Of a stretch of 64,000 nt of DNA, positions 17,811-34,780 are shown in pieces. Below the pieces are notes generated by a model. It was not told the origin of the DNA, did not search any database, and saw only the letters and a list, made by a program, of their open reading frames with translations. Numbering within the stretch: position 1 is the stretch's first letter; each line of letters begins with the position of its first letter. The stretch is from Eubacteriales bacterium (GTDB taxonomy: Bacteria; Bacillota; Clostridia; Oscillospirales; CAG-272): contig JAZNZC010000153.1 of the NCBI GenBank assembly GCA_045594745.1, positions 4,941-68,940 on the forward strand, read 5' to 3'. The position numbers were made by a program, and so were the translations under genes.

Positions 17811-18905
17811 TTAAACGTTAAATCTGAAGAATACGATATCTCCATCCTGCATAATGTACTCCTTGCCTTCACTGCGGAGCACACCTGCATCCTTTGCGGC
17901 GTTCATCGAGCCGTGCTTTACAAGGTCGTCAAATGCAACGATTTCTGCACGAATAAATCCGCGCTCGATATCCGAGTGGATCTTTCCTGCTGCCTTGGGG
18001 GCCTTGGTTCCTTTGCGAATGGTCCAGGCGCGGCATTCATCGGGACCTGCGGTCAGGAAGCTGATAAGACCGAGCAGGGCATAACTTGCCTTAATGAGGC
18101 GATCCAGTCCGCTTTCCTCAATGCCGAGATCGGAGAGGAACATTTCCTTTTCTTCAGCGTCAAGCTGTGCGATCTCTGCTTCAATTTGACAACAAATGGG
18201 AATGATTTGCGAGTGCTCGCTTGCGGCGTACTCCTTGAGTGCGACGTATGCCTCATAGTCGTTGGGCTCGGATGCGGCGTAGTCCTCGTTGACGTTTGCA
18301 ACGTAAATGACGGGCTTGCGGGTGAGCAGGGGAGTGTCATACAGACAAGCTTCCTCATCGTCGGTCAGTTCCACGGTGCGCGCGCATTTACCGTCGGCAA
18401 GAGCTGCCATCAGCTTTTCAAATACGGCAAGCTCGGTAGCGTATTTCTTATCCGCCTTCATTGCTTTTTTGGTGCGGTCGATGCGACGCTCCAAAATTTC
18501 CATATCCGAGAAGATCAATTCAAGATTGATGGTCTCAAGGTCACGCATCGGGTTGATCTTGCCGTCAACGTGAATAATATTGTCATCCTCAAAGCAGCGT
18601 ACAACGTGCAAAATAGCGTCAACCTCACGGATATTGCCAAGGAATTGGTTACCAAGTCCTTCGCCTTTTGATGCGCCTTTAACAAGACCTGCAATGTCAA
18701 CAAATTCGATGACGGCAGGGGTGTACTTGTTGGGATGGTGCATATCTGCAAGGAAGTCAAGGCGTTTGTCGGGAACGGTCACCACACCCACGTTGGGTTC
18801 GATGGTGCAAAAAGGATAGTTTGCCGATTCTGCGCCTGCGTTTGTCAGCGCGTTGAAGAGCGTGCTCTTTCCCACGTTGGGAAGTCCCACGATACCAAGT
18901 TTCAT
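17811..18905 (-). CDS. ychF: Redox-regulated ATPase YchF
   Basis: [21 protein letters not shown]..., a TGS-like C-terminus and 364 aa length are all typical of YchF/OLA1. Confidence 0.95.
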
Positions 18906-18907
18906 TT
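18890..18907. repeat. Island junction direct repeat, copy 1 (att-like)
   Basis: CGATACCAAGTTTCATTT is identical to 34731-34748. It covers the ychF start codon and codons 1-5 on the minus strand. Confidence 0.85.
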
Positions 18908-19045: not shown

Positions 19046-20260
19046 TTAAGTGAAAGCGTCTTCCCAAATCTCGTCGATTTCAGACGAATTTGCTCCCTCA
19101 AACTGTTTGATTGCGTTTGCCATAGAATCGTCCGTTACGTGAACGTATTTGTCCATCGTTGTCTGGATGCTTGCGTGACCGAGTAGCTTTTGCAGAACCT
19201 TGGGAGGCATCCCTCGTTCGATTGCTCTCGTTGCGTATGTATGACGAAGGACGTGCATCGAGAAATGCTTGATGCCTGCCTCGTCGCATAACTTGTAGAG
19301 ATGTGTGTCGTAGGAACTGTTTTTTGCCGGCGCTCCCGTCCTATAGTTTATAAACACAAGATCCCGCATCACGAGAGTGGATTTTTGTCCCGTATAACGA
19401 TCCATGTAGTCGAGCGTTTGTGACAGCATCTCCGATTCCTTTCTCTCTCCGATTTTTGAATGAACAATTTCAAGAATCGAATACGCTCGCTTTGTGAGAG
19501 GAATCGTTCGGTAGCTTTGCGGAGTTTTGGGCGGTCCTGCACGCCAAGAGCCTTGCTTGTGTCTGAACTCTAAGGTCTTGTTGACTGTAAGTGTTCGTTT
19601 CTTCCAATCAATCGCATCCCAGGTAAGACCAATCAATTCTCCCGTTCGCAAACCCGTTTCCAACAACAGCGCATACTGATAATAGTTATGAGAACGCTTT
19701 GCAACCTCCAAAAATTTTTCCTGTTCTTCAACCGTCAGAGCACGAATGTTGCTTGGATCACTAATGGGTATATTGACCTTTAACCCATCCATCGGATGCT
19801 TTGCAATCATATCGTTTAATCTTGCCGATTTGAACATAGCTCCCATTGTTGTGTAGGTTTGAAGAATGGTCGAACCCTTGTATGTATCATACATACTGTT
19901 CACAACCAGTTTGCAGTGAAGCTGTTTTACATCCGTTAACCGCAGATGTCCGATAATTGGCTTCATGTTTCGGATATATCGTTCGCGGTAGTTCCGAATT
20001 GTGTTCGGAGCTAAATCGCCAACGATCTTTGTAATCCAGAAATCAAACCATTCATCAACCGTTGTGTTAGACGGAAGGAACGCTTCCGAATGCTTGTCTG
20101 CATACCTTGCTTCTTCAAGCCAGTTTCTCGCTAATGGAAGTGCCGGAAAGCTTTTTTCGCACCGTTTTCCATATCGGTTTACAAATCTTGCGACGTATAA
20201 ACCATCTTTTCTTTGGCAGATGCCTTTGCCAATTTCTTTGCCTTTTAGATTTTTGCCCAA
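19046..20260 (-). CDS. int: Tyrosine integrase (phage-integrase family)
   Basis: 404 aa. The N-terminus resembles an arm-binding domain. The C-terminal catalytic region reads HVLRHTYATRAIE...LGHASIQTTMDKYVHV. Confidence 0.9.
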   Translation of the reverse strand: MGKNLKGKEIGKGICQRKDGLYVARFVNRYGKRCEKSFPALPLARNWLEEARYADKHSEAFLPSNTTVDEWFDFWITKIVGDLAPNTIRNYRERYIRNMKPIIGHLRLTDVKQLHCKLVVNSMYDTYKGSTILQTYTTMGAMFKSARLNDMIAKHPMDGLKVNIPISDPSNIRALTVEEQEKFLEVAKRSHNYYQYALLLETGLRTGELIGLTWDAIDWKKRTLTVNKTLEFRHKQGSWRAGPPKTPQSYRTIPLTKRAYSILEIVHSKIGERKESEMLSQTLDYMDRYTGQKSTLVMRDLVFINYRTGAPAKNSSYDTHLYKLCDEAGIKHFSMHVLRHTYATRAIERGMPPKVLQKLLGHASIQTTMDKYVHVTDDSMANAIKQFEGANSSEIDEIWEDAFT

Positions 20261-21132: not shown

Positions 21133-22476
21133 TTAACTGGTCATTATTTTAGTAAAAAAATCTTTTATCGATGATTGATCATAAACCTTTTCGACTTCTT
21201 TGCAAATTAAAATGACAAGCTTTTCTTTTGATCTTGTCAAGGCAACATAAAGTGCGTTTTTTATTTTATTTTCCGCAGTTTTATCTAAAAAAAGATAGGG
21301 TGCTAATTCGCTCGTGAGTATGAAGAGGCATCGTTCCCCCTCTAATCCCTTTATGCTTTCAATTGAAGAAACCTCATGTTTTTTTGACGTAGTTGTTTGT
21401 TTAACTAACAGTGCATCCTTAACTTTTGCATATTGTTGCTTTGAAAGTGTTCCTGTATGTGTCTCCAAACGATTTATTATTTGTTTTTCGGGTTTGCCTT
21501 GATTATAGAGATCAATCATTCCCTTGGTGTAATTGTATGATCGAATTTCTCGAACTTGTACATCAGGCTCAATCTCACACAAAATAGTATAGATTTCGTA
21601 ATATAGTGTATCAAACCTTGATGGTCTTTCCAACACATTGCTATGTGTTTCGAACAGATCGTTCTTTTGATAAATGTATTTCAAATCAAATTGAGATGAT
21701 AACAGAGTGTCTATATCACAAGAACTCTCAAATATAACCTCTATACTACCGCCGGTTTTTTCAGAGGTTTGGCGTTCATTTTTGTGAATCAAGGAATTTG
21801 TGATTTTAAGATGTTTAGCTGGACAACGATGGCAAGTTGCATCATAAATAACCGATTGTGGTCTTGCATTGATTAATTCTCTAAAATAACCATACCCGCG
21901 AATATCTTGTTTTGGATCGCCTTTAAGTACTACCTCAATTCCTTCAGAATCAAGTTTTTCAAAAATTTCCTTCATATGTCCATCAATATCTTGAGCTTCA
22001 TCAACAAATATCGTTTGGCAATATGATTTGAAGGTTCCCAAAACAATGGATCTGTAATCCTTTTGAAGTTTTTTATCAGTACTCTTTTTCACTACAACCC
22101 ATTTAGCTTTTTCAGGTATCGCCTCTATATGAAGTACATTTCTTCTATCCAATTCTGCGAGTTTGTAATTTTTGAATTCTGGCTTATCGGGAAGTTCTAT
22201 AGTGGAAATTGAACCATAGTGTTTGTTGTAAATTACATAGTAGTAAGGGGATACAAATTCTTGGAACAAAAAGGAATGAATTGTACATACAATGATGTTT
22301 TCAGGAATCACGTCATAATGGGACAATAATTTATCCTTAATAGACTTTACTGCATTGTTAGTAAATGCAACACAAAATATTTTTTTATTTGAAGAATTTT
22401 GTTCGTGTTTTTCAATGATTTCTTTAGCAAGTCCTGTTGTTTTTCCTGCACCTGCCCCAGCAACATTAATTATCAT
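21133..22476 (-). CDS. gajB: Gabija GajB, UvrD/Rep-like SF1 helicase
   Basis: Walker A AGAGKTTG at the N-terminus, FVDEAQDI (motif II) and VALTRSKEKL (motif VI). The start overlaps the gajA 3' end by 11 nt. About 447 aa. Confidence 0.8.
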   Translation of the reverse strand: MIINVAGAGAGKTTGLAKEIIEKHEQNSSNKKIFCVAFTNNAVKSIKDKLLSHYDVIPENIIVCTIHSFLFQEFVSPYYYVIYNKHYGSISTIELPDKPEFKNYKLAELDRRNVLHIEAIPEKAKWVVVKKSTDKKLQKDYRSIVLGTFKSYCQTIFVDEAQDIDGHMKEIFEKLDSEGIEVVLKGDPKQDIRGYGYFRELINARPQSVIYDATCHRCPAKHLKITNSLIHKNERQTSEKTGGSIEVIFESSCDIDTLLSSQFDLKYIYQKNDLFETHSNVLERPSRFDTLYYEIYTILCEIEPDVQVREIRSYNYTKGMIDLYNQGKPEKQIINRLETHTGTLSKQQYAKVKDALLVKQTTTSKKHEVSSIESIKGLEGERCLFILTSELAPYLFLDKTAENKIKNALYVALTRSKEKLVILICKEVEKVYDQSSIKDFFTKIMTS

Positions 22477-24220
22477 CTTTTTTACCTGCCATAAAATCAA
22501 ATATCGCCTGTATATGTGCTGGCATCTGCAATCCAACTAAACTTCCATTAGCAATATCGTGGCTAATAGTAAGCATAACTTCTGCTTTTTGAGATTTCCA
22601 CTTGTCAGACAACTGGTCTTGTGTTAATCCTGTCCACCCAAATTGAGTTCCATATTTACTCTGCAATAAGGTATAATTGCTTCCAGTTTTTACAATTTCC
22701 GGTTCCAATGTGTAATTTTTTGTTGTTGTAACAAGAATTGATTGGCACGAATTATATTTCTCGTGATTCGCTTGTGCGGCGGGTTGATTATCATAATCTC
22801 TAACGATTCCTAAACGTTTGTGGCAATTACTGTTTGTTTTCTGCCATATTTCAATGATTTTTGTAAATCCTTTATGAAATGATAGAACATCAATATCACC
22901 GAGTGTGCTTTGAGAAGCTTGGTATGCCTTAATAAATAATTCTTCAGTTATACCTTCTACCAATATACAACGATGAGACAAGAACAATTTGTAGATATCG
23001 GTATTAGGATTTTTGGAAAGATAATTGCGTTCTTCATCATTAAGTTCTGTTGAAAGTGCATACGCTTCTCCTGCATCCAACACCACTACACTTTCCAAGG
23101 CGTGTTTATTTAAAAATTCTGTGCTATGGGAAGAAAAAATGAGCTGAACACTTTTGTTGTCTTTTGTCAAAGCATTAATAAAACTGCACATCAATCGAAT
23201 ATTATTGATGCACAAATGTGCTTCGGGCTCTTCCATAATCAAAACATTTATTACGGTATCACATTGTTTTTCTTTCCACGAATTTAACAACACGAGTAAT
23301 AATATTAAATTTCTATACCCCAATCCTTGTAATGACAAGCTTTCATCCGCGTACCCGAGTTTTACTCCATTTAAGATAGTTGACAACGGCGGCATATTGG
23401 GCAAAATGCTAATACTTGAAATAAAATCCTTTGCTCCAGGAATCGAACTATAATCCTGCCAATTGAGCACACTATCAACATCTCCGGCCTTTTTTACTTC
23501 GTCGAAAAAAGTTTGATATTGCTTTTCTATATGAACTAAATTTTCGTTGCTATATCGAGACTCTAATAGTTTTACAAGAGATTTATATCCAATCTTGCTG
23601 TTATCATATGAAAAACCATCTCTTTCTGCGGGGAGCATTGTATATTTAAAATATCTCAATACATCATATGCAACCTTCGCTTCTTTTTCAGGGACCACTA
23701 TTGAGTATGTGTACAAACTAATCGGTAGAAGATTACGCTTAACATCTGAAATATTTACAGATGAATCCGATAGAATCTCTTTTACAGATTCCAAAAGCTT
23801 AGACGGCATATCTACGGTAAAACGATATAATAGCCCATATTGAATATTGTTATTAGCTATTTTGAAAGCTATATCTTTTACATAATACAACTCATCCGTT
23901 TCAGGTGTAAAGTGAATTTCCACAGAAACAACAGGAATGCTTTTTATAAAATCATCTAACAAAAGGGAGCCTTCAACAATTTGATCTCGATGCGTTTCCA
24001 AATATTTAAAATACTCGTTTCTCGCTTTTGAATTGATGTCATCCCAGGTTAAATGTTTAGAAATCGTGTTATCCTCGGAGTAAAGTGGAAGAGACAATGC
24101 ACGCAATATATTGCTTTTACCACTATTGTTTTCTCCAATGAAAATAGTAGTTCCTTCAGATTCAAAAGATGTTCCCTCAATATTTCGATAATTTTTTATT
24201 GTGATTTCAGAAATCTTCAT
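22466..24220 (-). CDS. gajA: Gabija GajA, OLD-family ATPase-Toprim nuclease
   Basis: GENNSGKSN Walker A, LIMEEPEAHL Walker B/ABC-like, and a C-terminal Toprim (ILVEGITEE ... VRDYDN). About 584 aa from MKISEITIKNYRN with a GAGGG SD. Paired with a UvrD-like helicase. Confidence 0.8.
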   Translation of the reverse strand: MKISEITIKNYRNIEGTSFESEGTTIFIGENNSGKSNILRALSLPLYSEDNTISKHLTWDDINSKARNEYFKYLETHRDQIVEGSLLLDDFIKSIPVVSVEIHFTPETDELYYVKDIAFKIANNNIQYGLLYRFTVDMPSKLLESVKEILSDSSVNISDVKRNLLPISLYTYSIVVPEKEAKVAYDVLRYFKYTMLPAERDGFSYDNSKIGYKSLVKLLESRYSNENLVHIEKQYQTFFDEVKKAGDVDSVLNWQDYSSIPGAKDFISSISILPNMPPLSTILNGVKLGYADESLSLQGLGYRNLILLLVLLNSWKEKQCDTVINVLIMEEPEAHLCINNIRLMCSFINALTKDNKSVQLIFSSHSTEFLNKHALESVVVLDAGEAYALSTELNDEERNYLSKNPNTDIYKLFLSHRCILVEGITEELFIKAYQASQSTLGDIDVLSFHKGFTKIIEIWQKTNSNCHKRLGIVRDYDNQPAAQANHEKYNSCQSILVTTTKNYTLEPEIVKTGSNYTLLQSKYGTQFGWTGLTQDQLSDKWKSQKAEVMLTISHDIANGSLVGLQMPAHIQAIFDFMAGKKDDN

Positions 24221-24306
24221 AATTGCCCTCTGAGTTGTTATTCCAATTAGTCTGTTTTTTGCGGGAGAATATAATATTTTGTATTCTCCCACAAGTCAAT
24301 TGATTT

Positions 24307-27162
24307 TTACTCCGCGATTCCATCCGTATCAAAGATGTGATCCAGCTCGTCCGAAGTCATAGCGCGAAGCACTTTGTCGCGAACGACCATATCGGTCAGA
24401 TCCAATCTAGCGAACTTACTTCCGCTGGCATTGTTGTTCTTGTGAATCAACTGAATTCTGCCAATGCGGTTCTCATTTCTTGCATACTCTGCAAGAGCTT
24501 TTGCCTTGGGAAGATTATCCGCATACTGATTTCCGTGGGGCTCAAGAATGTCTACGACATACTCAGCATAAGGATCGCTACGCACTACCAAGAAATCTGG
24601 ATAGAATGCTTTCTTTTCTCCACCGATTTCATAAGGCAAGCAGAGCGCCCACGTGCCTCTTGAAGGATTACGTAACCAGCAAACAAAATCGTTTCTGCGT
24701 GCTTCCTCCTCTATAAGAGAGCTTTCCCACCCGTTCAGCTTGATTTTTGCGATTCCGGTTTCGGGAGATGCAAGCAGATGGTTATCGTATTCAGTTCCTT
24801 CGGGATCTTCACGAACACAAATATTTTCGGGAATCGCGAAAATCTGCTCGCTGATTACATCACTATCCGCCATAATATCGTGATATTTTTTCTTGCAGGA
24901 ATCCGACTTACTAACAATGGCGATACGATACTTTTTGCTGAACTCGTTCAGCTTTTTCTTCGCATATTCACCAAGCTTTGTCCTACAATCATCATCGTTG
25001 GCAAAGAGCACACAGTCAATTTTGTGAGCATTGGGATCGTCTTCATCGTAATACAAATATCCGTATTTGCTTGGGAAGCCATAGCGTCCAAGCTTGGCAT
25101 CTGCATCTCTTACACGCCTGTCAAGGTCGTTCTCAGACATCATAGTAAGATCGTCAAAGTAATTATCAACCAAAGCTTGTCCGAATGGATCAAATACCTG
25201 AATCGATAATTTGAATTCCAATACTTGTTTTGCGAGTTCCTCATATTTACCTGTGCGGTGAAGCTCATCAACGTATGCACGAATCAAACCGAGAACGTCA
25301 TCAATAACTTCATCACGCGCATTTTGGTAAATAAGGTTATGTGTAAGAAGATCAGCGAGGTCAAGAAGCGATTTGAGGTAATCATTGATGCGGTCATGAC
25401 GGATAAAATACGTTAAATAACCTTGTGCATTGATGAAATCAATGATCTCAACGCGATCAATATCCGTTTGAATTACAAGTTGCCTGCCGGGTGCGGGCGG
25501 TGTAAACAACGGAGTAGTCGGCGTGCTTGGCGCGGGGACGGTAACGGTCATCGGAGGATTATATTCCGGTGCATTGTTTTCTCCTACAGGAGCAGAATGA
25601 GTATGGGAAGGAACAGAAGGATTATCGCTTGTTGGTGCAGTGGTGACAGGTGTCACAGAGCTTGTATCGGCTGAAACGGGTGCATCAAACATGCTCGTTT
25701 GTCCGGGAACGCCAACCGGCTGGCGCGTGTTTCTCGGCGTGTGAACCGTCCAAGTAACGTAGGTAGGTTCTTCAAGCGATTCGCCGTTGATTTCCGTAGG
25801 AATATCTCCGCCCTCATTGCTTTGCAATTCTTCTACTACGTGCTTAACAGTTTCCTTGTTGAAGTAAGGCAAATAGAGCTTTACGTCGTTCAAAAACTCA
25901 TCGCGCTGTACGCGCATCTGCAAGGGCGTTCTAACCATTCTACCGAGCAACTGTGCGATATAGGTGGGATCATTGCGGACAGCAAAGGACATCATGGTCT
26001 CTGCTCTGGGGCAATCCCATCCCGTTGACAGTGCTTCCTTGAAGAAAACAACCTTGATCTTGTGATCGTCAGCAATTTCAGATGCCTTTATGTGCGGAAT
26101 TTTAAGACCGTTTAATTCAACAGTCGTATTTTCACCAAAACAATGAACAACCTCACCCGGCGCAAATCGTTTCCCGAGCTTTTCTTCGATTTTGGCAAGA
26201 ACGTCTTCAAGGTTGGTATCCGACAACGCAGCGCCGCTTCCTTTACGAACCTGAACTACGAAAACAGGATCAACGTTTGCATAGTGCTGCTCAGTCGTAT
26301 ACTGCTTCCATCTCAGACACTTTTTCTGCCATTCTTCCACGGCGGCTTCCAAAAGCACCATATCGTTATTCTTTTCGGGATCCTCGGGATAAGTGATCGC
26401 AATTCTATCCTTGAGAAGACCGGAGCTGCGAACGTCATCGGCAGTAATGACATACTTTTGGAGTCCTACGTTCGTTATATTGCCAACCAACGTGTTAAAT
26501 CTATCTGCTGTGGCACTGATACCGAGAATTACGGGCATTGAACGCATCGTGCGCTTAATACCGTTTTCCATATATTCATAGCCCTTGATAAAGCGCTGCA
26601 TAATGGTTGTGTCGGTACCTGCTTCTCGTTTGCTTTTTGCTCCACGGTGTGCCTCATCAATGATAAAATACAAGTGATCTGATTTGTTCTGAATCGTATT
26701 ATCGAGCGTTTCCCAAATCGTATACTGACGGGAATCGGAATGCTGACTCAGTTTGGCACTACGGCTGATTTTCTGTGTGTTAAGAAAATAAATATTGCCG
26801 TCCTCAAGCATTTCCATATCAAAGGAATCCTCGGAGATTGTAACACACTGACCGAAACGAAGTTTGCTCGTTTTTAGCTCAATCTTTGCCTTGGACTGCT
26901 CGTTCAATTCCGGAGAATCTGACAGCCAAACAAAGATAGCCTCGGGTTGCTCGGAATAAGTCGTTCCATCAGGCATCGTTGTGCCAAAGTAAATGTTCTC
27001 AATCAATGCTGCGGCAATAATGGTTTTACCGGCACCGGTGGGCGCTTGCAGAGAAACGACCTGAGTTTTATGCCTGCGCTGATATGTACCAAGAGCTTCC
27101 GCAATATCAAGACGCAACTCTTTTACGGCTTTTTCCTGAAAGGATATTAAATCTACCTTCAT
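24307..27162 (-). CDS. res: Type III restriction enzyme Res-like subunit (SF2 helicase plus C-terminal PD-(D/E)xK-like nuclease)
   Basis: APTGAGKT (motif I), IIDEAHRG (DEAH), STGWDCPRAE (motif VI), and C-terminal YPDFLVV...DILEPHG. 4-nt overlap with the upstream mod gene. Confidence 0.8.
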   Translation of the reverse strand: MKVDLISFQEKAVKELRLDIAEALGTYQRRHKTQVVSLQAPTGAGKTIIAAALIENIYFGTTMPDGTTYSEQPEAIFVWLSDSPELNEQSKAKIELKTSKLRFGQCVTISEDSFDMEMLEDGNIYFLNTQKISRSAKLSQHSDSRQYTIWETLDNTIQNKSDHLYFIIDEAHRGAKSKREAGTDTTIMQRFIKGYEYMENGIKRTMRSMPVILGISATADRFNTLVGNITNVGLQKYVITADDVRSSGLLKDRIAITYPEDPEKNNDMVLLEAAVEEWQKKCLRWKQYTTEQHYANVDPVFVVQVRKGSGAALSDTNLEDVLAKIEEKLGKRFAPGEVVHCFGENTTVELNGLKIPHIKASEIADDHKIKVVFFKEALSTGWDCPRAETMMSFAVRNDPTYIAQLLGRMVRTPLQMRVQRDEFLNDVKLYLPYFNKETVKHVVEELQSNEGGDIPTEINGESLEEPTYVTWTVHTPRNTRQPVGVPGQTSMFDAPVSADTSSVTPVTTAPTSDNPSVPSHTHSAPVGENNAPEYNPPMTVTVPAPSTPTTPLFTPPAPGRQLVIQTDIDRVEIIDFINAQGYLTYFIRHDRINDYLKSLLDLADLLTHNLIYQNARDEVIDDVLGLIRAYVDELHRTGKYEELAKQVLEFKLSIQVFDPFGQALVDNYFDDLTMMSENDLDRRVRDADAKLGRYGFPSKYGYLYYDEDDPNAHKIDCVLFANDDDCRTKLGEYAKKKLNEFSKKYRIAIVSKSDSCKKKYHDIMADSDVISEQIFAIPENICVREDPEGTEYDNHLLASPETGIAKIKLNGWESSLIEEEARRNDFVCWLRNPSRGTWALCLPYEIGGEKKAFYPDFLVVRSDPYAEYVVDILEPHGNQYADNLPKAKALAEYARNENRIGRIQLIHKNNNASGSKFARLDLTDMVVRDKVLRAMTSDELDHIFDTDGIAE

Positions 27163-29357
27163 CTGCTGTTCCTCCCTGCATTTATTCTAAAGTTATCGAG
27201 ATAATCTCGGTATAATTGATATGTTTTCTTACCTTCAAGAGCTTTTGTCATAGAAACAAATCCTGCCTCATAATCGGTAACAAGGTAAACAACCTCAATT
27301 TCGGGATGCTCGTCCAACTGATTCTTGAACTCTGCAAAAGCATTCTCGTTATTCAAAATTGCCATTTTGTTTTTAGGCAGAATGAGTATGTCAGGTATAT
27401 TTTTGTCAATCGTGGGACACTCACCGACTGCCCCCGCCTTCATCCACAAAGTAGATAACAGCTCTTTGAACTGCATACCAAGTGAAACCTTGGTTTTATC
27501 AAGAAATCCGAGTTTGAAGAAGACGGCATTTGCATGAAAGCCATCGGATCGTTTGATTTCGGCCAATTGGGGAAGTTTTTGTACTTCTTTTTTAATATAT
27601 ATTTTTTTTGAAGTGGGCTTTCCAGTCTTTTTAGAAACGATAGTATCCTCATCGTCTATTATATATTCTTCTTCGATAACACCATAATCGCCATCTAAGG
27701 GATTGCCGTTCACATCTTTGCCAAGAATACTGCAAACTGTCCGAGGCCATGTTACATATCGCGCTATACCCTTATTTTCCCATTCTTCGTCTCCTTGCTT
27801 AATACCACGTGCTTCAAATTCATTTTTTTCAGCTTCACTGATCTCATTGTTTGTTATCATTATACAACGACGTTTACCACCATCTTCCGCATTAAGAAGA
27901 TTAGTGGCGTGAAGTGTTGTACCCGAACCGGCAAAGAAATCAACAATCAAAGCATTGGGTTTGTTGGCGGTTGCATAATACAAACAATCTTTAACTGCAT
28001 ACAACGATTTTGGATAAGAAAATCTGTTTGGTGTAAGAATTGACTTTACAATGTTTGAGCCAAACCACTGAGCATCATGAGTGTGCTTGTTCCAATTCGT
28101 TGTTGGAGGGATTTCTTTGCTTTCATAATAAAATGCATTAACACTGCCATCATCGCAAATGTTTTTAATAAAGGCTTTTCCGGATTCAATGTCAGAAATT
28201 ATTCCTCCAGTTAGGTATGAGATAACATATTTCTGCGGTTTATTGGGAGTGTGTTTTCCAACTCTTATATATCCTTTATTTAAACGAGCGAGAAATTCTT
28301 CTTTCACGCATCCCCACATCATTTCCATCCCATTATCGCGAATTGGAAAAACTGCAGTACACCCAGCAGGAGCAACAACATCACACATTTTGTCCACTCC
28401 AAAAATAAGGGGATCTCCTACCGAATGGATCTTCTTTGTACTATCATCAACAAATACAGGATAGAACTGCTTTTTTGTTTTATTCCATGTGTTTGTTGGT
28501 CCAGATCTACGTAAAGTATCCCAAACCACTGGCGTATTTTGGCCTTCGCTTCCATCCAAAGCAATAGAAGCAGAACCTATTCTGACAAAGAACAAATATT
28601 CATCGGTTCGAGAAAACTCATATTTGCGTCCTGTACCTGCACGATTAATAACACTACTGACCATTTGAATATTTGCATATGAAAACATTTCTTCAAGCAA
28701 ACATCCAAGATGCAAATATTCTTTTTCATCAATTGTAACAATTAAAATAGAATCATAGGGGTTAAGCAAACGTTTGGCTATTTCTAACCGCTTTTGCATA
28801 AAAGATAACCATTTACTATGCTTATATTCATCATTTTCATCTACATATTTGTTATTATACTTCCAATCTGTTGCGCCAGAGTTATAAGGGGGATCTATAT
28901 AAATACAATCAACTTTACCCGCATAAAGATATTCGAGAAGCTGGAGCGCGTGATAATTATCCGCCTCAATAAGAGTATGCCACAGATCGCTATCGGGAGC
29001 ATTGCAAACACTATCCAACAGCTTGAGACAAGGATAGATTGCCTCGCCAAACTCGGCTGTAACAACCAGATCTTCAACGGGATATTCTATTGCTGTATTG
29101 CCGCTTTTCGGCATACACCAAGCCTTACCGTTCTCAATCTTTAATACCTTGAAGGTAGTGTTGACCGATCCAGACTTCAACGAAACGGTTGCCCCCTTCT
29201 TAACAGGAATGTCGTAAAGGGGAGTACATTCGGGCAAATGCTCCTCAAATACCAAACCGAATTTCTTCTGCTTGGCAAGCTTATTTGCCGCTTCCTGAAT
29301 CTGCGCACGAAGCTCGGGATTTTCTATTTTTGCAATCAATTCATTTAATGCTGCCAT
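27159..29357 (-). CDS. mod: Beta-class N6-adenine/N4-cytosine DNA methyltransferase, type III Mod-like
   Basis: IYIDPPYNSG (motif IV) precedes VDFFAGSGTT (motif I), which is the beta-class order typical of type III Mod. Translationally coupled to res. Confidence 0.85.
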   Translation of the reverse strand: MAALNELIAKIENPELRAQIQEAANKLAKQKKFGLVFEEHLPECTPLYDIPVKKGATVSLKSGSVNTTFKVLKIENGKAWCMPKSGNTAIEYPVEDLVVTAEFGEAIYPCLKLLDSVCNAPDSDLWHTLIEADNYHALQLLEYLYAGKVDCIYIDPPYNSGATDWKYNNKYVDENDEYKHSKWLSFMQKRLEIAKRLLNPYDSILIVTIDEKEYLHLGCLLEEMFSYANIQMVSSVINRAGTGRKYEFSRTDEYLFFVRIGSASIALDGSEGQNTPVVWDTLRRSGPTNTWNKTKKQFYPVFVDDSTKKIHSVGDPLIFGVDKMCDVVAPAGCTAVFPIRDNGMEMMWGCVKEEFLARLNKGYIRVGKHTPNKPQKYVISYLTGGIISDIESGKAFIKNICDDGSVNAFYYESKEIPPTTNWNKHTHDAQWFGSNIVKSILTPNRFSYPKSLYAVKDCLYYATANKPNALIVDFFAGSGTTLHATNLLNAEDGGKRRCIMITNNEISEAEKNEFEARGIKQGDEEWENKGIARYVTWPRTVCSILGKDVNGNPLDGDYGVIEEEYIIDDEDTIVSKKTGKPTSKKIYIKKEVQKLPQLAEIKRSDGFHANAVFFKLGFLDKTKVSLGMQFKELLSTLWMKAGAVGECPTIDKNIPDILILPKNKMAILNNENAFAEFKNQLDEHPEIEVVYLVTDYEAGFVSMTKALEGKKTYQLYRDYLDNFRINAGRNSR

Positions 29358-29652
29358 TTTTGTTTTCTCCGTTTCTCTTATCCACTAAAAATAGAAGCTG
29401 TTCGCCCAGAATATATCGAAGATCAATTTCAGTTATTTGATTTCGAGGTTTACTTACTGTTGTGGGCAACGAATTTACTTTCGCGTATATATCAGAATGA
29501 TTTCCATAATTTGATACAATTTGTCTGTTGGCAGAATCCATATCAAGCGGATTTTTCTGATACTCATTCCACGTATCCAATATATCTTTTTCCAACGGTG
29601 TAATCATCCGCTGACTTTTTAAAAATTCAATTAAAATACTTACTTTATCCAT
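29341..29652 (-). CDS. Hypothetical 103-aa protein, translationally linked to mod
   Basis: The ORF overlaps the mod start by 17 nt and lies 15 nt downstream of the ATPase gene. No motif recognised. Confidence 0.55.
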   Translation of the reverse strand: MDKVSILIEFLKSQRMITPLEKDILDTWNEYQKNPLDMDSANRQIVSNYGNHSDIYAKVNSLPTTVSKPRNQITEIDLRYILGEQLLFLVDKRNGENKNGSIK

Positions 29653-29667
29653 CTTATTTTCCCAAAC

Positions 29668-31053
29668 TCAAATCATTTTCTCATACTCAACCAGCGTTAC
29701 GTTACCCATTTCGGTTGTTTTGTCAATGCAGCCCTTGGTAAAGCCGGATTTGGCGAAGAGGTAGTAATGCACGTTCTTGTAGTGGAAGAGTTTGCTACGT
29801 TCAACGAGCAGATCGAGCACGCCGACGTCAACCTTTTCGTTTGTCCACTTGCACTCGCCAAAGAGGGCGGTGTTTTTATCGGCTTCGCCCATAATATCGA
29901 TCTCGGTCTGGGACTTAGATTTCGAATCGTTACCCCACCAACGTCCGAGAGAGGTAAACTCAATGGGACATTTGCCCGAGAGAAGCTGCTTCCAGAGATA
30001 CTGCTTGCAGATCTCCTCGAACACTCTGCCCATATACTCGGACAGATGCGGCTCGATGCGCTTATATGCGAGATCGGATGCGCCGCGCGCGATGATGGAA
30101 TTGTTTTCGGGCACGAAGCGATACCAGAAGCGGAACATATTATCCTCAACCGAATAGATCGACTTGCGGGATGCCTTTTCACCGTAGGGCGTTTCCTTTT
30201 GAACGATGCCGAGAGAGAGCAGATTTTTTAGATAGATAGAGCATACGTTGGTATCCTCGCCTACCTTGCTGGAAATCTCGGACATACGCGACGCACCCGT
30301 TGCAATAGCGGTGATGATCGCGTTATAGATCGCCGGCTCGCGCACCTCCTGCTTGAGCAGATTGGTCGTTTCCTCAAACAAGGGAGAGGTCGGGTTCAGA
30401 TAGGTATTCTTGATATTTTCCTCGATGCTGAGCTTATCGTCGATCTGCAAGAGGTATTGCGGAGTTCCGCCGACGATACCGTAAATGAGGGCTTTGTCCT
30501 CGCTGGAAGCGTTGGGGAAATAACGGCAGGTTTCCTCAAAATCGAAGGGGTTGATCTTCATCTGCGCCGTCTTTCTTCCGTAAAGAGGGGCTTTGTAGGA
30601 AAGCACGTAATCCTCCATAAAGGACATGGACGAGCCGCAAAGAATGAGCATCAGCTTGGAGGTATCCTTATATTTATCGATCAGAAGCTGGAGCGTGGAT
30701 GCAAGGCTCTTTGAGGAACGGGCAACGTAAGGATACTCGTCGATTGCAAGCACGATCCTCTCATTCTCAGCCATCTTGAAAACGTACTCCAAAGCCGCCT
30801 GGAATGAAGCGAAAGAGGTTTCAAGCGAGAACCCCGTACCGTATTCAAGTATGCTCTTTGAAAAGTTATCAAGATTTTGCTTGGCATTGCTCTCAACGCC
30901 CATAAAATATATCGCTTTTTTGTCACGAACAAACTCGTTGATCAGCGCCGTCTTACCGACACGGCGGCGACCGTAAATAACCGCAAATTCAAATTTATCC
31001 GAAGCGTACAGCCTATTCAAAGCCGTCAGCTCACGTTCTCTGCCAATAAACAT
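29668..31053 (-). CDS. ATP-binding protein: archaeal-type ATPase (ATPase_2-like) N-domain plus DUF234-type PD-(D/E)xK C-domain
   Basis: FIGRERELTALNRLY...VIYGRRRVGKTAL (Walker A), LAIDEYPY (Walker B), and C-terminal ...GRWWG...EIDIMGE...GECKW (D/ExK-like). Start placed at MFIGRE with an AGGAGG SD. Confidence 0.75.
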   Translation of the reverse strand: MFIGRERELTALNRLYASDKFEFAVIYGRRRVGKTALINEFVRDKKAIYFMGVESNAKQNLDNFSKSILEYGTGFSLETSFASFQAALEYVFKMAENERIVLAIDEYPYVARSSKSLASTLQLLIDKYKDTSKLMLILCGSSMSFMEDYVLSYKAPLYGRKTAQMKINPFDFEETCRYFPNASSEDKALIYGIVGGTPQYLLQIDDKLSIEENIKNTYLNPTSPLFEETTNLLKQEVREPAIYNAIITAIATGASRMSEISSKVGEDTNVCSIYLKNLLSLGIVQKETPYGEKASRKSIYSVEDNMFRFWYRFVPENNSIIARGASDLAYKRIEPHLSEYMGRVFEEICKQYLWKQLLSGKCPIEFTSLGRWWGNDSKSKSQTEIDIMGEADKNTALFGECKWTNEKVDVGVLDLLVERSKLFHYKNVHYYLFAKSGFTKGCIDKTTEMGNVTLVEYEKMI

Positions 31054-31153
31054 AAAAATATGCCTCCTTGTATCAGTTGACACTATTATAGCACACATTT
31101 TCAGTTTAGTCAAGTACGATTTGGTAAATTGTGATTATATATTTTTGAATTAC

Positions 31154-31200
31154 GGAACAATATTCGGAACATTGCACGTTTTCTGTTCCGCATATTGTTC
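31154..31200. promoter_or_regulatory. Imperfect 16-17-bp inverted repeat with GGAACA/TGTTCC half-sites (candidate operator)
   Basis: GGAACAATATTCGGAAC - 14 nt - GTTCCGCATATTGTTC (one mismatch), about 100 nt upstream of the ATPase operon in the divergent intergenic region. Confidence 0.4.
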
Positions 31201-31323
31201 TTTGGCACCGCTTATGAGAAAAAAGAAGACTGCCGGGAGCGCGCTCTGGTAGACGATATACCAAACTCATTTTTAACTATTTGTAAATAATGCGAAATTC
31301 AAGATAAATTCATCAAGCCACCC

Positions 31324-31351
31324 TTGTTTTTCCATACTGATATGGTATAAT
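31324..31351 (+). promoter_or_regulatory. Putative promoter of the solitary membrane-protein gene
   Basis: TTGTTT-16 nt-(TGG)TATAAT. Confidence 0.5.
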
Positions 31352-31372
31352 TAAGGTAATCTGTTAAAGAAG

Positions 31373-32218
31373 GTGATTTATGATTTGAAGAAAGTAAAAA
31401 AATCGATACAGGCAATTCTTATAACTTTTGTTGTAGGCGCTCTTGTTCCGAGAATTTTCAGTTTATCAGATTTTGGACTAGTCAATAAATTGGCTTGGAA
31501 AGGTCTGTTGGGAGCAGCTTTTGGAATTGCAACATTTCTTGTTGGCATTTTATATTCGTGCCATTTAATCTCTGGAAAAAGATCCGGAGGAAAAACACGA
31601 ATCGGAATATATATTTCTATCGTACTGATTCTATGTTGTGCTGCCCCAATGCTTGCACTTGTCGTTGCTACGATGTCTAAAATCGTTGCTGTAATTTTAG
31701 CCTTCGCAATGATGTGCGGCTTAACGTATTTGATTTGCAAGCTTATTAAATGGTTATCTAAAAAGAAACAACCCGAGGCTCGTTCTATAGGGAGCTCAGC
31801 TAAAAATCAAGAAACAAAATCACATGACAACACAAGTATAGAAAACAATATTCAAAACACGGTTGTTTCCGGTGATGTTAAATCAGAGATTATTGAATCT
31901 TGCACCATCGAAAAACCGACAATTACCGAACAATCGACCGGTGAATGTGAAGAAGTCACGGGGCTTCAACCAGCTGTAGCACATCTCGAAAACTTTGATG
32001 CTTGTTTTACCTTGTATGAGCTTGCAATGTATCACGATTTCGAATCTGGTTGTATGACGGTAACGAACGACGAGAATCCAGATTTGAAGTGGGTTAAAAT
32101 TTACAAGCCATGTTATGGCAACGGAAAGTTTTATGGATATGTAATGATGAACAATGCGCATCATTCGGTTAATGGTGAAATATTTTTTGCAAACAGACCA
32201 ATTTGGTATTTGGTATGA
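31373..32218 (+). CDS. Hypothetical membrane protein (about 4 TM helices plus a C-terminal soluble domain)
   Basis: 281-aa ORF, AT-rich, the only plus-strand gene in the island. The start is uncertain: GTG at 31373 abuts the SD, and TTG at 31385 is an alternative. Confidence 0.55.
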   Translation: MIYDLKKVKKSIQAILITFVVGALVPRIFSLSDFGLVNKLAWKGLLGAAFGIATFLVGILYSCHLISGKRSGGKTRIGIYISIVLILCCAAPMLALVVATMSKIVAVILAFAMMCGLTYLICKLIKWLSKKKQPEARSIGSSAKNQETKSHDNTSIENNIQNTVVSGDVKSEIIESCTIEKPTITEQSTGECEEVTGLQPAVAHLENFDACFTLYELAMYHDFESGCMTVTNDENPDLKWVKIYKPCYGNGKFYGYVMMNNAHHSVNGEIFFANRPIWYLV

Positions 32219-32250
32219 AGCAATAAATTACTTTCTGGATAATTTAAACG

Positions 32251-32296
32251 AAAATGGGTATGACACAAAGCGAACGCCGTGTGCCATTCCCATTTT
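32251..32296. terminator. Bidirectional terminator between convergent island genes
   Basis: AAAATGGG...CCCATTTT outer stem with inner ATGACAC/GTGTGCCAT pairing. Confidence 0.55.
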
Positions 32297-32298
32297 AT

Positions 32299-33465
32299 TT
32301 AGTTATTCAGCACTTCTTTTTCTACGAACGCAAACGAAATTTGTTTGATGATAGCATTGCTGCCTTCCATATACTTTTGCACGAACTTTGCCATCCAATC
32401 GTAACAGATGATTTCGCCAAGCACATCCGGATACAACGCTAACGCTTCCTTAAATCGTTTCAGTCTGGTAAGATCACAATCGAGAAGTGATAAAACGTGT
32501 TTCTTTCCTTCTTCTGAGGTGACCAAAGCATCGTAATCAAATCGACCACACCCAAAGGTGCGCTCCTCGTCATCAAACAACAGTTGCAAAAGCTCATCTT
32601 TCCAATTCGGTATAGTAAGGAATTTCAAAAATCGTGCACCATACTCATTTAACGGAACATAGTGAATGTAGAAAAACTGACTATCAAATCGATATTCCTT
32701 ACGGCTGATCTTCTTGGTTGATTCAATCGAGCCCATTGCGATCTCTGGTGAAACCCCGAAAATGATTGCCGAATGGATACGGTCAACGCTATACGCCGCA
32801 TTAGCCTCATAAATAAATTCAAGATTTATTCTCGCCTTCATCTCACCCTCGCCCGACCATTTCATCACGGAATCGCGTGTATTGAATACGCAATAACAAT
32901 CGTTACCGGCGAATAGCCCACCGACCATTCGTGTAAAATTCGTTTTGTTTGCCTCGCTGTCCTCTCCGCCGATCTGCTTGATTGCGCGACTTGTGAGAAA
33001 GAAAGGAGAGCCCGGGGCGATCAGGTATGCACGTCTGCCGATTTTGAGTTTGGGCAGATTATGCGGCAATACTTCGATCCCCGCGTCCATACAGACTGCC
33101 AGGGCTTCACCGACTCGGTGGTTTCGGTCAAGGTGTGATGCGTTCATCGGTAGGCTATAACCGTGAGTGATGCTTTCGTAATACTCACCCTCGCCAAGCC
33201 AAGTGAGTATGGGAAGCGCCCCTGCATAGAGGCGAATGGTTTTCGTTTTGCTTCTGCCGCAGAGATTGAATAGCTTCGGAAGCGATAACGTTTCGCCCGT
33301 CACGCTATTCTTCACCGTCAGCGGCGACAGCCCATCCTTTACCAGCTTGCGATACATACGCTTGTTGCCGAGAAGATGCAAGGATTTCACGGGATATTCA
33401 CCCGCAACGGATAATAGGCACATCAAACGATAGAGCTGACTGCCCGGTTTCATTGTTTTCATCAT
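32299..33465 (-). CDS. Hypothetical 388-aa protein (possible N-terminal winged-helix domain); function unknown
   Basis: Strong SD (AGGAGG, 8-nt spacer) and host-like composition. The N-terminus LYRLMCLLSVAGEYPVKSLHLLG looks wHTH-like. I recognise no catalytic motif. Confidence 0.6.
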   Translation of the reverse strand: MMKTMKPGSQLYRLMCLLSVAGEYPVKSLHLLGNKRMYRKLVKDGLSPLTVKNSVTGETLSLPKLFNLCGRSKTKTIRLYAGALPILTWLGEGEYYESITHGYSLPMNASHLDRNHRVGEALAVCMDAGIEVLPHNLPKLKIGRRAYLIAPGSPFFLTSRAIKQIGGEDSEANKTNFTRMVGGLFAGNDCYCVFNTRDSVMKWSGEGEMKARINLEFIYEANAAYSVDRIHSAIIFGVSPEIAMGSIESTKKISRKEYRFDSQFFYIHYVPLNEYGARFLKFLTIPNWKDELLQLLFDDEERTFGCGRFDYDALVTSEEGKKHVLSLLDCDLTRLKRFKEALALYPDVLGEIICYDWMAKFVQKYMEGSNAIIKQISFAFVEKEVLNN

Positions 33466-33653
33466 ATAGTTTTCCTCCTTATATGTAAGAATTTTTTAGA
33501 ATTGTGTCATCGGGAGAATTGCGACATGATGACTGCTCTCAATGTCGCAACGCTCCCACGAAAATCTCCCGAAAAGTCAGGTTTTATAAGGCTTTTTCGA
33601 GCTTTCGGGAGGTGTAAGAAATTTTTAGCGAAAATCGGTTGTTTTTACATCTG

Positions 33654-34358: not shown

Positions 34359-34380
34359 AAATTTTCTCCTTTCTAAATCA

Positions 34381-34677: not shown

Positions 34678-34746
34678 TTATCGACTTTTATGGAGATATA
34701 TTTTAGTGCTGAAATTTGGTCGGTCATCACCGATACCAAGTTTCAT
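34678..34746 (-). pseudogene. Displaced ychF 5' remnant (MKLGI + 17 unrelated codons)
   Basis: ATG AAA CTT GGT ATC is identical to the ychF start. It then diverges and stops after 22 codons. It is preceded by its own SD and promoter. Confidence 0.7.
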
Positions 34747-34748
34747 TT
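34731..34748. repeat. Island junction direct repeat, copy 2 (att-like)
   Basis: CGATACCAAGTTTCATTT is identical to 18890-18907. Confidence 0.85.
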
Positions 34749-34780
34749 GTTTTGTGCTCCTTTGTCTTTTTATCCCATCT

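What the first reader, a model, noticed from the sequence alone, without database searches (positions are those of the whole stretch)
29341..31053. An ATPase-DUF234 (NTPase plus PD-(D/E)xK) gene and a 103-aa unknown are packed in line with mod-res: a possible four-gene or stand-alone defence module
The ATPase, the 103-aa gene, mod and res are all on the minus strand, with a 15-nt gap, a 17-nt overlap and a 4-nt overlap respectively. That implies one transcript. The first protein combines an STAND/archaeal-type ATPase (GRRRVGKT; IDEYPY) with a C-terminal nuclease-like module (EIDI...GECKW). An NTP-driven sensor fused to a nuclease recurs in anti-phage systems. The 103-aa partner has no recognisable motif and is much more AT-rich than the ATPase gene, which suggests mosaic assembly. 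The pair may modulate the R-M system or may be an independent, uncharacterised defence unit. I cannot tell from sequence alone whether this family already belongs to a named system.
Basis: partly seen in the sequence, partly recalled or inferred. Interest (0 to 1): 0.6.

Follow-up and report, generated by a model that had tools for sequence, protein, structure and literature searches.

The report
Unknown small gene leading restriction operons
The two genes are not a pair. The ATPase-nuclease is a catalogued but untested single-gene defence candidate (PADLOC PDC-S27), while the 103-aa gene belongs to an undescribed family of small helical proteins that sits directly in front of the methylase gene of Type III and Type I restriction-modification operons in gut bacteria.

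Summary
In detail: genes, spacings, motifs and the GC contrast are all as described.

**ATPase_2+DUF234 gene (29668-31053).** It matches PADLOC candidate PDC-S27 (E 2.5e-65). This is a published, unvalidated single-gene ATPase + PD-(D/E)xK candidate. It travels as a self-contained cassette with its own strong promoter. Homology to five other contexts covers only the gene plus about 80 nt upstream.

**103-aa gene.** It belongs with mod-res, not with the ATPase.
- The family has 641 clusters, no name, no Pfam match and no PDB match.
- In 104 loci forming 19 clusters at 90% identity, it sits immediately 5' of a methyltransferase gene. That gene is usually Type III mod, and Type I hsdM in two clusters.
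- The overlap is 8-17 nt. The protein's tail encodes mod's ribosome-binding site and ATG.
- Apparent orphans carry mod remnants.
- The ATPase is its neighbour in one lineage only.
- It is facultative: only 3 of 32 related mod loci have it.
- AlphaFold gives a confident five-helix model (pLDDT 89.6) with no fold match.

**Setting.** Everything lies in a 15.8-kb integrase-bearing island in the 5' end of ychF, which also carries Gabija.

**Function.** The role of the 103-aa protein is unknown. My best guess is a regulator or modulator of the restriction-modification system.

The parts
31085..31113 (-). Sigma-70-like promoter TTGACT-17-TATAAT (with TG extension) for the ATPase. It is probably also the only promoter feeding p103-mod-res in this window.
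   Evidence: 11 of 12 matches, the best minus-strand site in 20800-31500. AGGAGG 8 nt before the ATG at 31053; this upstream stretch is conserved along with the ATPase in unrelated contexts.
29668..31053 (-). ATPase_2 (AAA+-like) + wHTH + DUF234 (PD-(D/E)xK) protein of 461 aa. It matches PADLOC candidate PDC-S27. Walker A lies at 30949-30972, Walker B at 30727-30744, and the nuclease motifs at 29893-29904 and 29845-29859.
   Evidence: searches (Pfam; PDC-S27, 2.5e-65, residues 2-410 of the protein; motif coordinates; PDB 2qen and 2fna match the ATPase domain only), PMC3424549 (DUF234 classed as PD-(D/E)xK).
29341..29652 (-). p103: a 103-aa, all-helical protein of an unnamed family. It is translationally coupled to mod through a 17-nt overlap, and its C-terminal tail encodes mod's ribosome-binding site and ATG.
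   Evidence: family. (AF2 pLDDT 89.6, five helices). (no fold, PDB or Pfam match). (synteny and overlap).
27159..29357 (-). Type III R-M methyltransferase (Mod), 732 aa.
   Evidence: N6_N4_Mtase, 2.2e-20. (PADLOC MTase_III, 4.4e-138).
24307..27162 (-). Type III R-M restriction subunit (Res), 951 aa, overlapping mod by 4 nt.
   Evidence: ResIII, 2.7e-14. (REase_III, 1.1e-08). (weak C-terminal match to a restriction endonuclease family).
21133..24292 (-). Gabija system (GajA then GajB) directly downstream of res. It is context for the finding, not part of the p103 unit.
   Evidence: GajA 1.7e-197, GajB 1.5e-130. (promoter-like site at 24299-24271).
19046..20260 (-). Tyrosine integrase of the island.
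   Evidence: (phrog_1 integrase, 9.6e-76).
18890..18907 (.). Left copy of the 18-bp direct repeat CGATACCAAGTTTCATTT, a putative att site. It overlaps the first codons of ychF.
34731..34748 (.). Right copy of the 18-bp direct repeat. It marks the island's right end.
   Evidence: In one search, high-identity homology to L002 and L001 (92-97%) starts at 34748/34746, while the flank beyond is only 72-75% identical.

Best explanation
The finding covers two separate units that happen to abut inside a 15.8-kb integrative defence island. The island spans 18908-34730, has att repeats in the 5' end of ychF, and carries an integrase, Gabija, a Type III R-M system and PDC-S27.

**Unit 1: the ATPase_2-wHTH-DUF234 gene.** It is a self-contained single-gene cassette with its own promoter and a member of PADLOC candidate family PDC-S27. 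By inference from its intact Walker A/B and D...ExK motifs, it is an NTP-dependent nuclease acting on nucleic acid. Anti-phage activity has never been shown.

**Unit 2: a three-gene operon, p103-mod-res.** p103 is a facultative accessory protein of about 100 aa, all-helical and cytoplasmic. Its gene is translationally coupled to the methyltransferase gene of Type III R-M operons and, less often, Type I.
- Shown: the linkage, the coupling, purifying selection, the facultative distribution, and the lack of detectable relatives.
- Inferred: p103 modulates the R-M system rather than forming part of its catalytic core. It may tune expression or establishment, like the C-protein and RptR controllers, or it may bind and modulate the methyltransferase-containing complex.

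**Link between the units in this window.** The p103-mod-res module carries no promoter of its own. It is most likely transcribed by read-through from the ATPase promoter. That link is transcriptional and does not make the ATPase part of a conserved functional module.
For: **ATPase.**
- Pfam and PADLOC matches.
- Published description of PDC-S27 as a single-gene ATPase + PD-(D/E)xK candidate (PMC12988326).
- Nucleotide homology between the window and five other contexts covers only window ~31130-29690, which is the gene plus its promoter.
- Two contexts are solitary among housekeeping genes.

**p103.**
- I analysed 104 loci falling into 19 clusters at 90% identity.
- The downstream gene is Type III mod-res in 11 clusters, hsdM in 2, and flavodoxin-like + Type I in 1.
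- All checked 'orphans' (L024, L050/53, L077/78, L011) carry mod remnants.
- The overlap is always 8, 11, 14 or 17 nt. The tail 'KE.E..NG' encodes the ribosome-binding site and the AATGG start of mod.
- In L157 p103 is internal to a helicase-DUF4391-p103-mod array, yet still directly 5' of mod.
- Upstream genes are highly variable: HTH_3, HTH_26, Bro-N, Ymh, GmrSD, pPIWI, AlbA_2, PDC-S01, PDC-S27.
- Type I-linked p103s are interspersed among Type III-linked ones on an NJ tree.
- pN/pS is 0.09-0.33 with an intact R-M system, against 0.67-1.86 in the orphans L077/78.
- Only 3 of 32 related mod loci in IMG/VR have p103.

**Island.** 18-bp direct repeats, integrase, and GC 0.41 against 0.48 in the flanks.
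Against: - No direct evidence exists for any biochemical activity of p103 or of the ATPase.
- In L003/L004 another ATPase-nuclease, PDC-S01, precedes p103-hsdM.
- p103 is often preceded by an overlapping HTH gene, which weakens the idea that p103 itself is the DNA-binding controller.
- In the L006 group p103 is not adjacent to hsdM.
- The locus sample is redundant and dominated by gut Clostridia metagenomes.
Confidence: 0.72

Rival explanations
1. p103 is a transcriptional controller of the R-M operon, an analogue of C proteins or RptR with a new or highly derived fold. It would bind an operator and limit or time expression of mod and res.
For: - Its position at or near the 5' end of R-M operons of two types resembles RptR, a 79-aa four-helix repressor leading Type I operons (PMC12255303). 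It also resembles a C-family gene reported upstream of a Type I hsd locus (PMC12707154).
- It is small, all-helical and facultative.
- hhalign gives a weak similarity to the NarL LuxR-type HTH: score 20.5 against 8-12 for controls, probability only 10%.
- One family member hits DUF2089-HTH at E 0.0065.
Against: - No HTH family matches at a significant level.
- No PDB fold or sequence match was found. Whether RptR entry 9R2Z is in those libraries was not checked.
- p103 is usually not the first gene. It abuts upstream genes with gaps of 0-15 nt and is often preceded by a bona fide HTH gene.
- In L157 it is internal to the operon.
- pI is 4.3-6.6.
- No shared operator-like motif was seen upstream.
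Confidence: 0.3
2. p103 is a protein partner of the methyltransferase-containing complex (Mod2 or M2S). It would act as a stoichiometric, translationally coupled modulator that, for example, delays or gates restriction or guards the complex against phage anti-restriction proteins.
For: - The stop/start overlap with the methyltransferase gene is conserved in every intact locus. The gene stays directly 5' of mod even when other R-M genes lie upstream.
- Selection is relaxed once mod is lost.
- Polar surface-type motifs are conserved: LEKDILDTWNE and LPTT.
Against: - The same family serves two unrelated methyltransferase families, N6_N4_Mtase and N6_Mtase/HsdM, with no co-segregation on the tree.
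- Close Mod relatives work without it.
- No interaction could be modelled with the tools available.
Confidence: 0.3
3. ATPase-p103-mod-res is one functional four-gene system, or the PDC-S27 ATPase is an R-M-coupled effector.
For: - In the window the genes are tightly packed, there is one strong promoter, and no terminator intervenes.
- ATPase orthologues lie directly 5' of R-M operons in 5 of 8 contexts.
- A second ATPase-nuclease family, PDC-S01, precedes p103-hsdM in L003/4.
Against: - ATPase-p103 adjacency is confined to one lineage and is interrupted by a 114-aa gene in L015.
- There are GC and homology breakpoints at the junction.
- The ATPase occurs alone among housekeeping genes.
- The R-M types next to it are all different, which fits a cargo hotspot beside a conserved gene in TnpV/relaxase/integrase elements.
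Confidence: 0.12
4. p103 is an anti-restriction or DNA-mimic type inhibitor (Ocr/ArdA-like) or a toxin/antitoxin component carried by the mobile element.
For: It is small, helical and mildly acidic in most members, and it lies on mobile islands.
Against: - Net charge is about -1 in the window protein and pI ranges up to 6.6, which is not mimic-like.
- It is encoded in cis with the R-M system it would inhibit.
- It is absent from phage and plasmid collections.
- It has no consistent partner gene apart from the methyltransferase.
Confidence: 0.05

Closest known systems
PADLOC PDC-S27 (single-gene phage defence candidate; Pfam ATPase_2 + DUF234, COG1672)
   Same: The window ATPase matches the PDC-S27 model over almost its whole length (E 2.5e-65). 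It has the ATPase + PD-(D/E)xK architecture described for the candidate and lies in a defence island.
   Different: Nothing distinguishes it from the family. The family itself has no experimental validation. Here it probably also supplies the promoter for the downstream R-M operon.
Type III restriction-modification systems (EcoP15I/EcoP1I type, mod-res)
   Same: mod (N6_N4_Mtase; PADLOC MTase_III 4e-138) is followed by res (ResIII helicase), with a 4-nt overlap.
   Different: A conserved third gene, p103, is translationally coupled to the 5' end of mod. A 2025 review describes Type III systems as two-gene systems with no dedicated accessory protein (PMC12707154).
RptR (79-aa four-helix repressor leading Type I R-M/DarTG islands in Gammaproteobacteria; PDB 9R2Z)
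   Same: It is a small all-helical protein encoded at the 5' end of R-M operons. It has a strong genetic association with R-M and, when described, had no close PDB homologue.
   Different: There is no detectable sequence or fold similarity. p103 is longer (five helices), is found in Bacillota and is mainly Type III-linked. It is usually not the first gene, its start-region overlap is with the methyltransferase gene, and DNA binding is untested.
Controller (C) proteins of Type II R-M systems
   Same: They are small facultative regulators encoded in R-M operons, and their genes often overlap the downstream gene.
   Different: C proteins are Xre-type HTH proteins placed before the restriction gene. 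p103 has no HTH match and precedes the methyltransferase gene. In many loci a separate Xre/CapH-like HTH gene precedes p103.
PDC-S01 (AAA_14 + DUF4143 ATPase-nuclease)
   Same: It has the same ATPase + PD-(D/E)xK logic as PDC-S27. In L003/L004 it occupies the same position upstream of p103-hsdM.
   Different: It is a different family. The window ATPase hits it only weakly (1e-14, against 2.5e-65 for S27).

Membership tests
PADLOC PDC-S27 | Match to the PDC-S27 profile over most of the protein | tested here: met
   PDLC04984, E 2.5e-65, protein residues 2-410 against profile positions 4-419 of 474. A second model gives 4.9e-40.
PADLOC PDC-S27 | ATPase domain fused to a PD-(D/E)xK nuclease domain, with catalytic motifs intact | tested here: met
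   (ATPase_2 7.8e-31; DUF234 5.8e-28). (Walker A, Walker B, and D...ExK motifs). PMC3424549 classes DUF234 as PD-(D/E)xK.
PADLOC PDC-S27 | Single-gene autonomy | tested here: met
   only the gene plus about 80 nt of promoter is shared between contexts; solitary copies among housekeeping genes.
PADLOC PDC-S27 | Anti-phage activity | not testable with these tools
   The literature states that validation is pending (PMC12988326).
Type III R-M system | Mod methyltransferase of the N6_N4 (beta-class) type, followed by a Res gene with an SF2 helicase domain, co-oriented and overlapping | tested here: met
Type III R-M system | Endonuclease motif in the Res C-terminus | tested here: inconclusive
   Only a weak match was found: NF046055 restriction endonuclease, E 1.1e-4, residues 811-900.
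Controller (C) protein | Xre-type helix-turn-helix domain | tested here: not met
   No HTH family matched the window protein. Among 29 members scanned down to E=5, only isolated sub-threshold hits appeared. hhalign against Xre-type test sequences scored at control level.
Controller (C) protein | Gene placed immediately before the restriction endonuclease gene | tested here: not met
   p103 precedes the methyltransferase gene in all intact loci.
RptR family | Sequence or structural homology to RptR (PDB 9R2Z) | tested here: not met
   No PDB chain matched by profile at E<0.07 or by Foldseek at E<0.4. Whether 9R2Z is in these copies was not verified.
RptR family | Binds palindromic repeats in its own promoter and represses it | not testable with these tools
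   No shared motif was seen by eye in the upstream regions. p103 is often not promoter-proximal.
DNA-mimic anti-restriction proteins (Ocr/ArdA) | Strongly acidic surface; encoded by phages or plasmids | tested here: not met
   pI 4.3-6.6, and 6.6 for the window-type protein. No hit in phage or plasmid collections.
Gabija (context) | GajA (ATPase + TOPRIM) followed by GajB (UvrD-like helicase) | tested here: met
   (1.7e-197 and 1.5e-130).

The most novel reading that the evidence does not exclude
p103 founds a new class of restriction-modification accessory protein. It would be a fold-novel, methyltransferase-coupled factor shared by Type III and Type I systems that controls when or whether the complex restricts. 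Possible roles include establishment timing, self-protection, or guarding against phage anti-restriction proteins. Some Type III systems would then be three-component.
Probability: 0.35. Interest if true: 0.7.

Novelty: new variant of a known kind. Interest (0 to 1): 0.5.

Why it matters
Type III R-M systems are treated as two-gene systems. How they and Type I systems avoid killing a new host, or are tuned afterwards, is only partly understood. Here a conserved third gene is hard-wired to the methyltransferase start codon in hundreds of gut-bacterial lineages, and it moves between R-M types. That makes it a concrete, testable candidate for a missing regulatory or modulatory layer.

The result also clarifies annotation. 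The ATPase-DUF234 gene should be called PDC-S27 and treated as independent. Its frequent position just upstream of swapped R-M cargo marks a defence hotspot in clostridial mobilisable elements.

Tried and rejected
- **Four-gene module.** Rejected on comparative synteny.
- **p103 as a general 'defence-operon leader'.** This was first suggested by loci where it precedes OLD-like, AAA_15 or HTH+NERD genes. I rejected it because those loci carry remnants of mod or of mod-res deletions.
- **p103 as an obligatory R-M subunit.** Rejected because close Mod relatives lack it.
- **p103 fused to other domains.** No fusions were found among the best 150 of 240 representative clusters.
- **hhalign against hand-typed HTH sequences.** Only a 10%-probability match to the NarL C-terminus. 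I treat it as a lead, not a result.
- **Operator search.** An eye search for a shared operator upstream of p103 found nothing.
- **p103 in plasmid and phage collections.** No match.
- **ATPase in IMG/VR.** No relative found.
- **Literature search for a small gene upstream of Type III mod.** Nothing relevant.
- **Payne et al. preprint on embedded defences.** Its text does not mention PDC-S27 by name.


Full report
**1. The observation**

The minus strand carries, in order:
- an ORF whose best start is the ATG at 31053 (461 aa, ending at 29668);
- a 103-aa ORF (29652-29341);
- a 732-aa ORF (29357-27159);
- a 951-aa ORF (27162-24307).

The spacings are a 15-nt gap, a 17-nt overlap and a 4-nt overlap. 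GC content is 0.488 for the ATPase gene, 0.327 for the 103-aa gene, 0.387 for mod and 0.452 for res (profile).

The ATPase is preceded by the best sigma-70-like site of the region: TTGACT-17-TATAAT with a TG extension at 31113-31085, followed by AGGAGG. No promoter-like site lies in the 3' part of the ATPase gene. No terminator-like site lies between the ATPase and mod. One transcript is therefore plausible, but it is inferred.

**2. Identity of the known genes**

| Gene | Evidence |
|---|---|
| ATPase | Pfam ATPase_2 (7.8e-31) plus DUF234 (5.8e-28); PADLOC PDC-S27 (2.5e-65, nearly full length) |
| mod | N6_N4_Mtase; PADLOC MTase_III 4.4e-138 |
| res | ResIII helicase domain |
| Downstream pair | Gabija: GajA 1.7e-197, GajB 1.5e-130 |

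- DUF234 is classified as a PD-(D/E)xK nuclease family (PMC3424549).
- PDC-S27 is described as a single-gene candidate with an ATPase fused to a PD-(D/E)xK domain. It is abundant in archaea, bacteria and rumen genomes, and it has not been validated experimentally (PMC12988326; PMC13356809).
- The only solved relatives cover the ATPase domain (2qen, 2fna).

**3. The setting is a mobile defence island**

- An 18-bp perfect direct repeat, CGATACCAAGTTTCATTT, lies at 18890-18907 and 34731-34748.
- The left copy contains the first codons of ychF (MKLGI).
- A tyrosine integrase lies next to it at 19046-20260.
- The enclosed 15.8 kb has GC 0.406, against 0.475 and 0.478 in the flanks.
- In the closest public genomes (Clostridia MAGs from goat and water-deer colon, L002 and L001), island DNA is 92-97% identical. 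High identity starts exactly at the right repeat, while the flank is 72-75% identical.

**4. The 103-aa gene (p103) is a real, unnamed protein family**

- A word-indexed search found 68 clusters down to 47% identity, all about 100 aa.
- An exhaustive profile search found 240 clusters at 50% identity. The best 150 listed are at most 173 aa and show no fusions to other domains.
- A broader profile search found 641 clusters at 90% identity. None of the 120 listed has a name or a Pfam domain.
- Invariant or near-invariant residues form two motifs, (T/S)xLEKDILDTWNE and LPTT, plus D77, Y80, L82 and Q85.
- AlphaFold2 gives a confident model (pLDDT 89.6, pTM 0.81) of five helices.
- Nothing significant was found in Pfam, NCBIfam, PHROGs or PADLOC, in PDB sequences, or by Foldseek against PDB and BFVD (best E 0.4).
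- The family is absent from the plasmid and phage collections.
- It occurs mostly in gut Clostridia, with single cases in Adlercreutzia and in a MAG labelled Odoribacter.

**5. p103 goes with the methyltransferase gene, not with the ATPase**

I collected 104 loci, called ORFs, clustered the neighbours and annotated representatives.

Downstream genes across the 19 p103 clusters at 90% identity:

| Downstream of p103 | Clusters |
|---|---|
| Type III mod followed by res | 11 |
| Type I hsdM (L003/4, L028) | 2 |
| Flavodoxin-like gene followed by a Type I hsdR-S-M set (L006) | 1 |
| Apparent orphans or other genes | remainder (5) |

Each of the checked 'orphan' loci carries a mod remnant:
- L024/29 keep mod residues 1-55 joined to the last 28 residues of res.
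- L050/53 keep mod residues 19-98.
- L077/78 and L011 keep the first codons of mod.

The stop/start overlap is 8, 11, 14 or 17 nt. The variable C-terminal tail of p103 (KE.E...NG) encodes mod's Shine-Dalgarno sequence and its AATGG start.

In L157 p103 is internal to a decayed SNF2-helicase / DUF4391 / p103 / mod array. It is still directly 5' of mod.

Upstream genes are very variable. They include a CapH-like HTH_3 protein (15 loci), HTH_26, a Bro-N/PDC-S13-like protein, Hypoth_Ymh, GmrSD/HEC-05-like, pPIWI_RE, AlbA_2, HNH, PDC-S01 and PDC-S27. The DUF234 ATPase is upstream only in the window lineage and its sister lineage. In the sister lineage (L015) a 114-aa gene is inserted exactly at the junction.

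**6. Evolutionary behaviour of p103**

- On an NJ tree, the Type I-linked p103s are interspersed among the Type III-linked ones. The hsdM-linked L004 is sister to the window type. The gene has therefore moved between R-M types several times.
- pN/pS is 0.09-0.33 between loci with an intact R-M system. It rises to 0.67-1.86 for the orphans L077/78. This suggests that the function depends on the R-M system.
- p103 is facultative. Of 32 IMG/VR loci encoding relatives of the 528-aa Mod, including several with the same MANKLELTWYGKDEPI N-terminus and up to 88% identity, only 3 have p103.
- The HTH_3-p103-mod-res cassette occurs in two different mobile backbones. One is phage-satellite-like.

**7. 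What p103 may do**

Shown:
- linkage and translational coupling to methyltransferase genes of two R-M types;
- facultative distribution;
- purifying selection;
- a soluble all-helical fold with no detectable relatives.

Inferred: p103 modulates the R-M system rather than being part of the catalytic core.

Two mechanisms are about equally likely.
- **A controller of expression.** The closest analogues by position are RptR (PMC12255303) and C proteins (PMC12707154). Against this, p103 has no HTH match, is often preceded by a true HTH gene whose stop overlaps its start, can be internal to the operon, and shows no shared operator. A weak hhalign alignment to the NarL LuxR-type HTH (probability 10%) is only a lead.
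- **A protein partner of the methyltransferase-containing complex.** This is favoured by the invariant coupling. It is weakened by the use of two unrelated methyltransferase families and by the lack of co-segregation on the tree.

A DNA-mimic or anti-restriction role is unlikely. pI is 4.3-6.6, the gene is encoded in cis with the R-M system, and it is absent from phages and plasmids.

**8. The ATPase is an independent cassette, often beside R-M cargo**

The ATPase has more than 8000 homologue clusters. All 120 listed are at least 81% identical. Nucleotide homology between the window and five other contexts covers only about 31130-29690, which is the gene plus its promoter.

The eight contexts seen:
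- the window type (p103 plus Type III);
- integrase-HTH_17-TnpV-ATPase-Type I;
- relaxase...ATPase-two small genes-Type I;
- ATPase-Type IIG/I-like methylase-S-GmrSD;
- a primase/resolvase element without R-M;
- two solitary copies among sugar-metabolism or housekeeping genes.

In 5 of 8 contexts the ATPase is the co-oriented 5' neighbour of an R-M operon, but of a different type each time. I read this as a cargo hotspot next to a conserved gene of mobilisable elements. A functional ATPase/R-M partnership cannot be excluded (confidence about 0.12).

In the window, the p103-mod-res module's homology to L015 begins only about 10 nt before the p103 ATG. The module therefore brings no promoter and probably depends on the ATPase promoter. 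This is a transcriptional link and need not be a functional one.

**9. Verdict**

This is a defence context with mosaic assembly and a known candidate ATPase. There is no conserved ATPase-p103 pair and no four-gene system.
- The ATPase is already known as a candidate (PDC-S27).
- The new element is p103, an undescribed accessory gene coupled to the methyltransferase gene. It makes this a three-gene variant of Type III (and Type I) R-M operons.
- Interest is moderate (0.5). The synteny evidence is strong and the protein has no known relatives, but the function is unknown and the system class is familiar.

Noticed in passing
window 18890-18907 and 34731-34748: There is a perfect 18-bp direct repeat 15.8 kb apart. 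The left copy overlaps the start codon region of ychF. The repeats bound a low-GC island (0.41 against 0.48 in the flanks) that carries a tyrosine integrase at 19046-20260. I read this as an integrative island inserted in the 5' end of ychF.
   Followed up: partly
window 21133-24292: A complete Gabija pair, GajA and GajB, lies directly downstream of res on the same strand. It has its own promoter-like site at 24299-24271.
   Followed up: partly
window 32299-34358 (and L001, L002, L015): A DUF6100 protein (234 aa) and a 388-aa protein with no family match travel with the island in all close relatives. They may be island backbone genes. Their function is unknown.
   Followed up: no
window 31373-32218 (+ strand): A 281-aa gene with a hydrophobic N-terminal half (read by eye as membrane-spanning) and no family match sits between the ATPase promoter and the 388-aa gene. 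In L002 and L015 this slot holds a different 375-aa gene on the other strand. It is a small variable slot inside the island.
   Followed up: no
L015 7641-7985 and 13283-15296: In a sister island a 114-aa gene, with what looks like a transmembrane segment and a coiled coil, is inserted exactly between the ATPase and p103. Gabija is replaced by a Hypoth_Ymh/PD-Lambda-3_B-like gene plus a SpbK-like TIR gene. This is cargo swapping at fixed junctions.
   Followed up: partly
L162-L166 (4543-9517): An HTH_3 (152 aa, CapH-like)-p103-mod-res cassette followed by KwaB lies in a phage-satellite-like element with a capsid gene, DUF3987 primase and HTH_17. The same cassette also occurs next to a serine recombinase. 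The four genes move as a unit.
   Followed up: partly
L157 2666-5862: p103 lies inside a decayed SNF2-helicase / 179-aa / DUF4391 / p103 / truncated-mod array flanked by sugar-metabolism genes. Its protein is recorded on many contigs (74; indexed in 100 collection blocks). The R-M locus looks pseudogenised, yet p103 is still intact.
   Followed up: partly
L107-L111, L116-L122 (ATPase orthologue loci): DUF234 ATPase orthologues are unusually conserved: at least 81% identical across all 120 listed clusters. They repeatedly follow HTH_17 and TnpV genes in integrase- or relaxase-bearing elements, with different R-M cargo immediately downstream. One Type I operon has a TIR gene embedded between hsdR and hsdM.
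   Followed up: partly
L022-L026, L043-L047 (1263-6810): A pPIWI_RE module (Z-domain STAND-like protein plus pPIWI_RE Argonaute-like protein) sits immediately upstream of p103-mod-res in one lineage.
   Followed up: no
window 34750-35150: A very AT-rich stretch (GC 0.23-0.29) lies between the right att repeat and the response-regulator gene at 35196.
   Followed up: no
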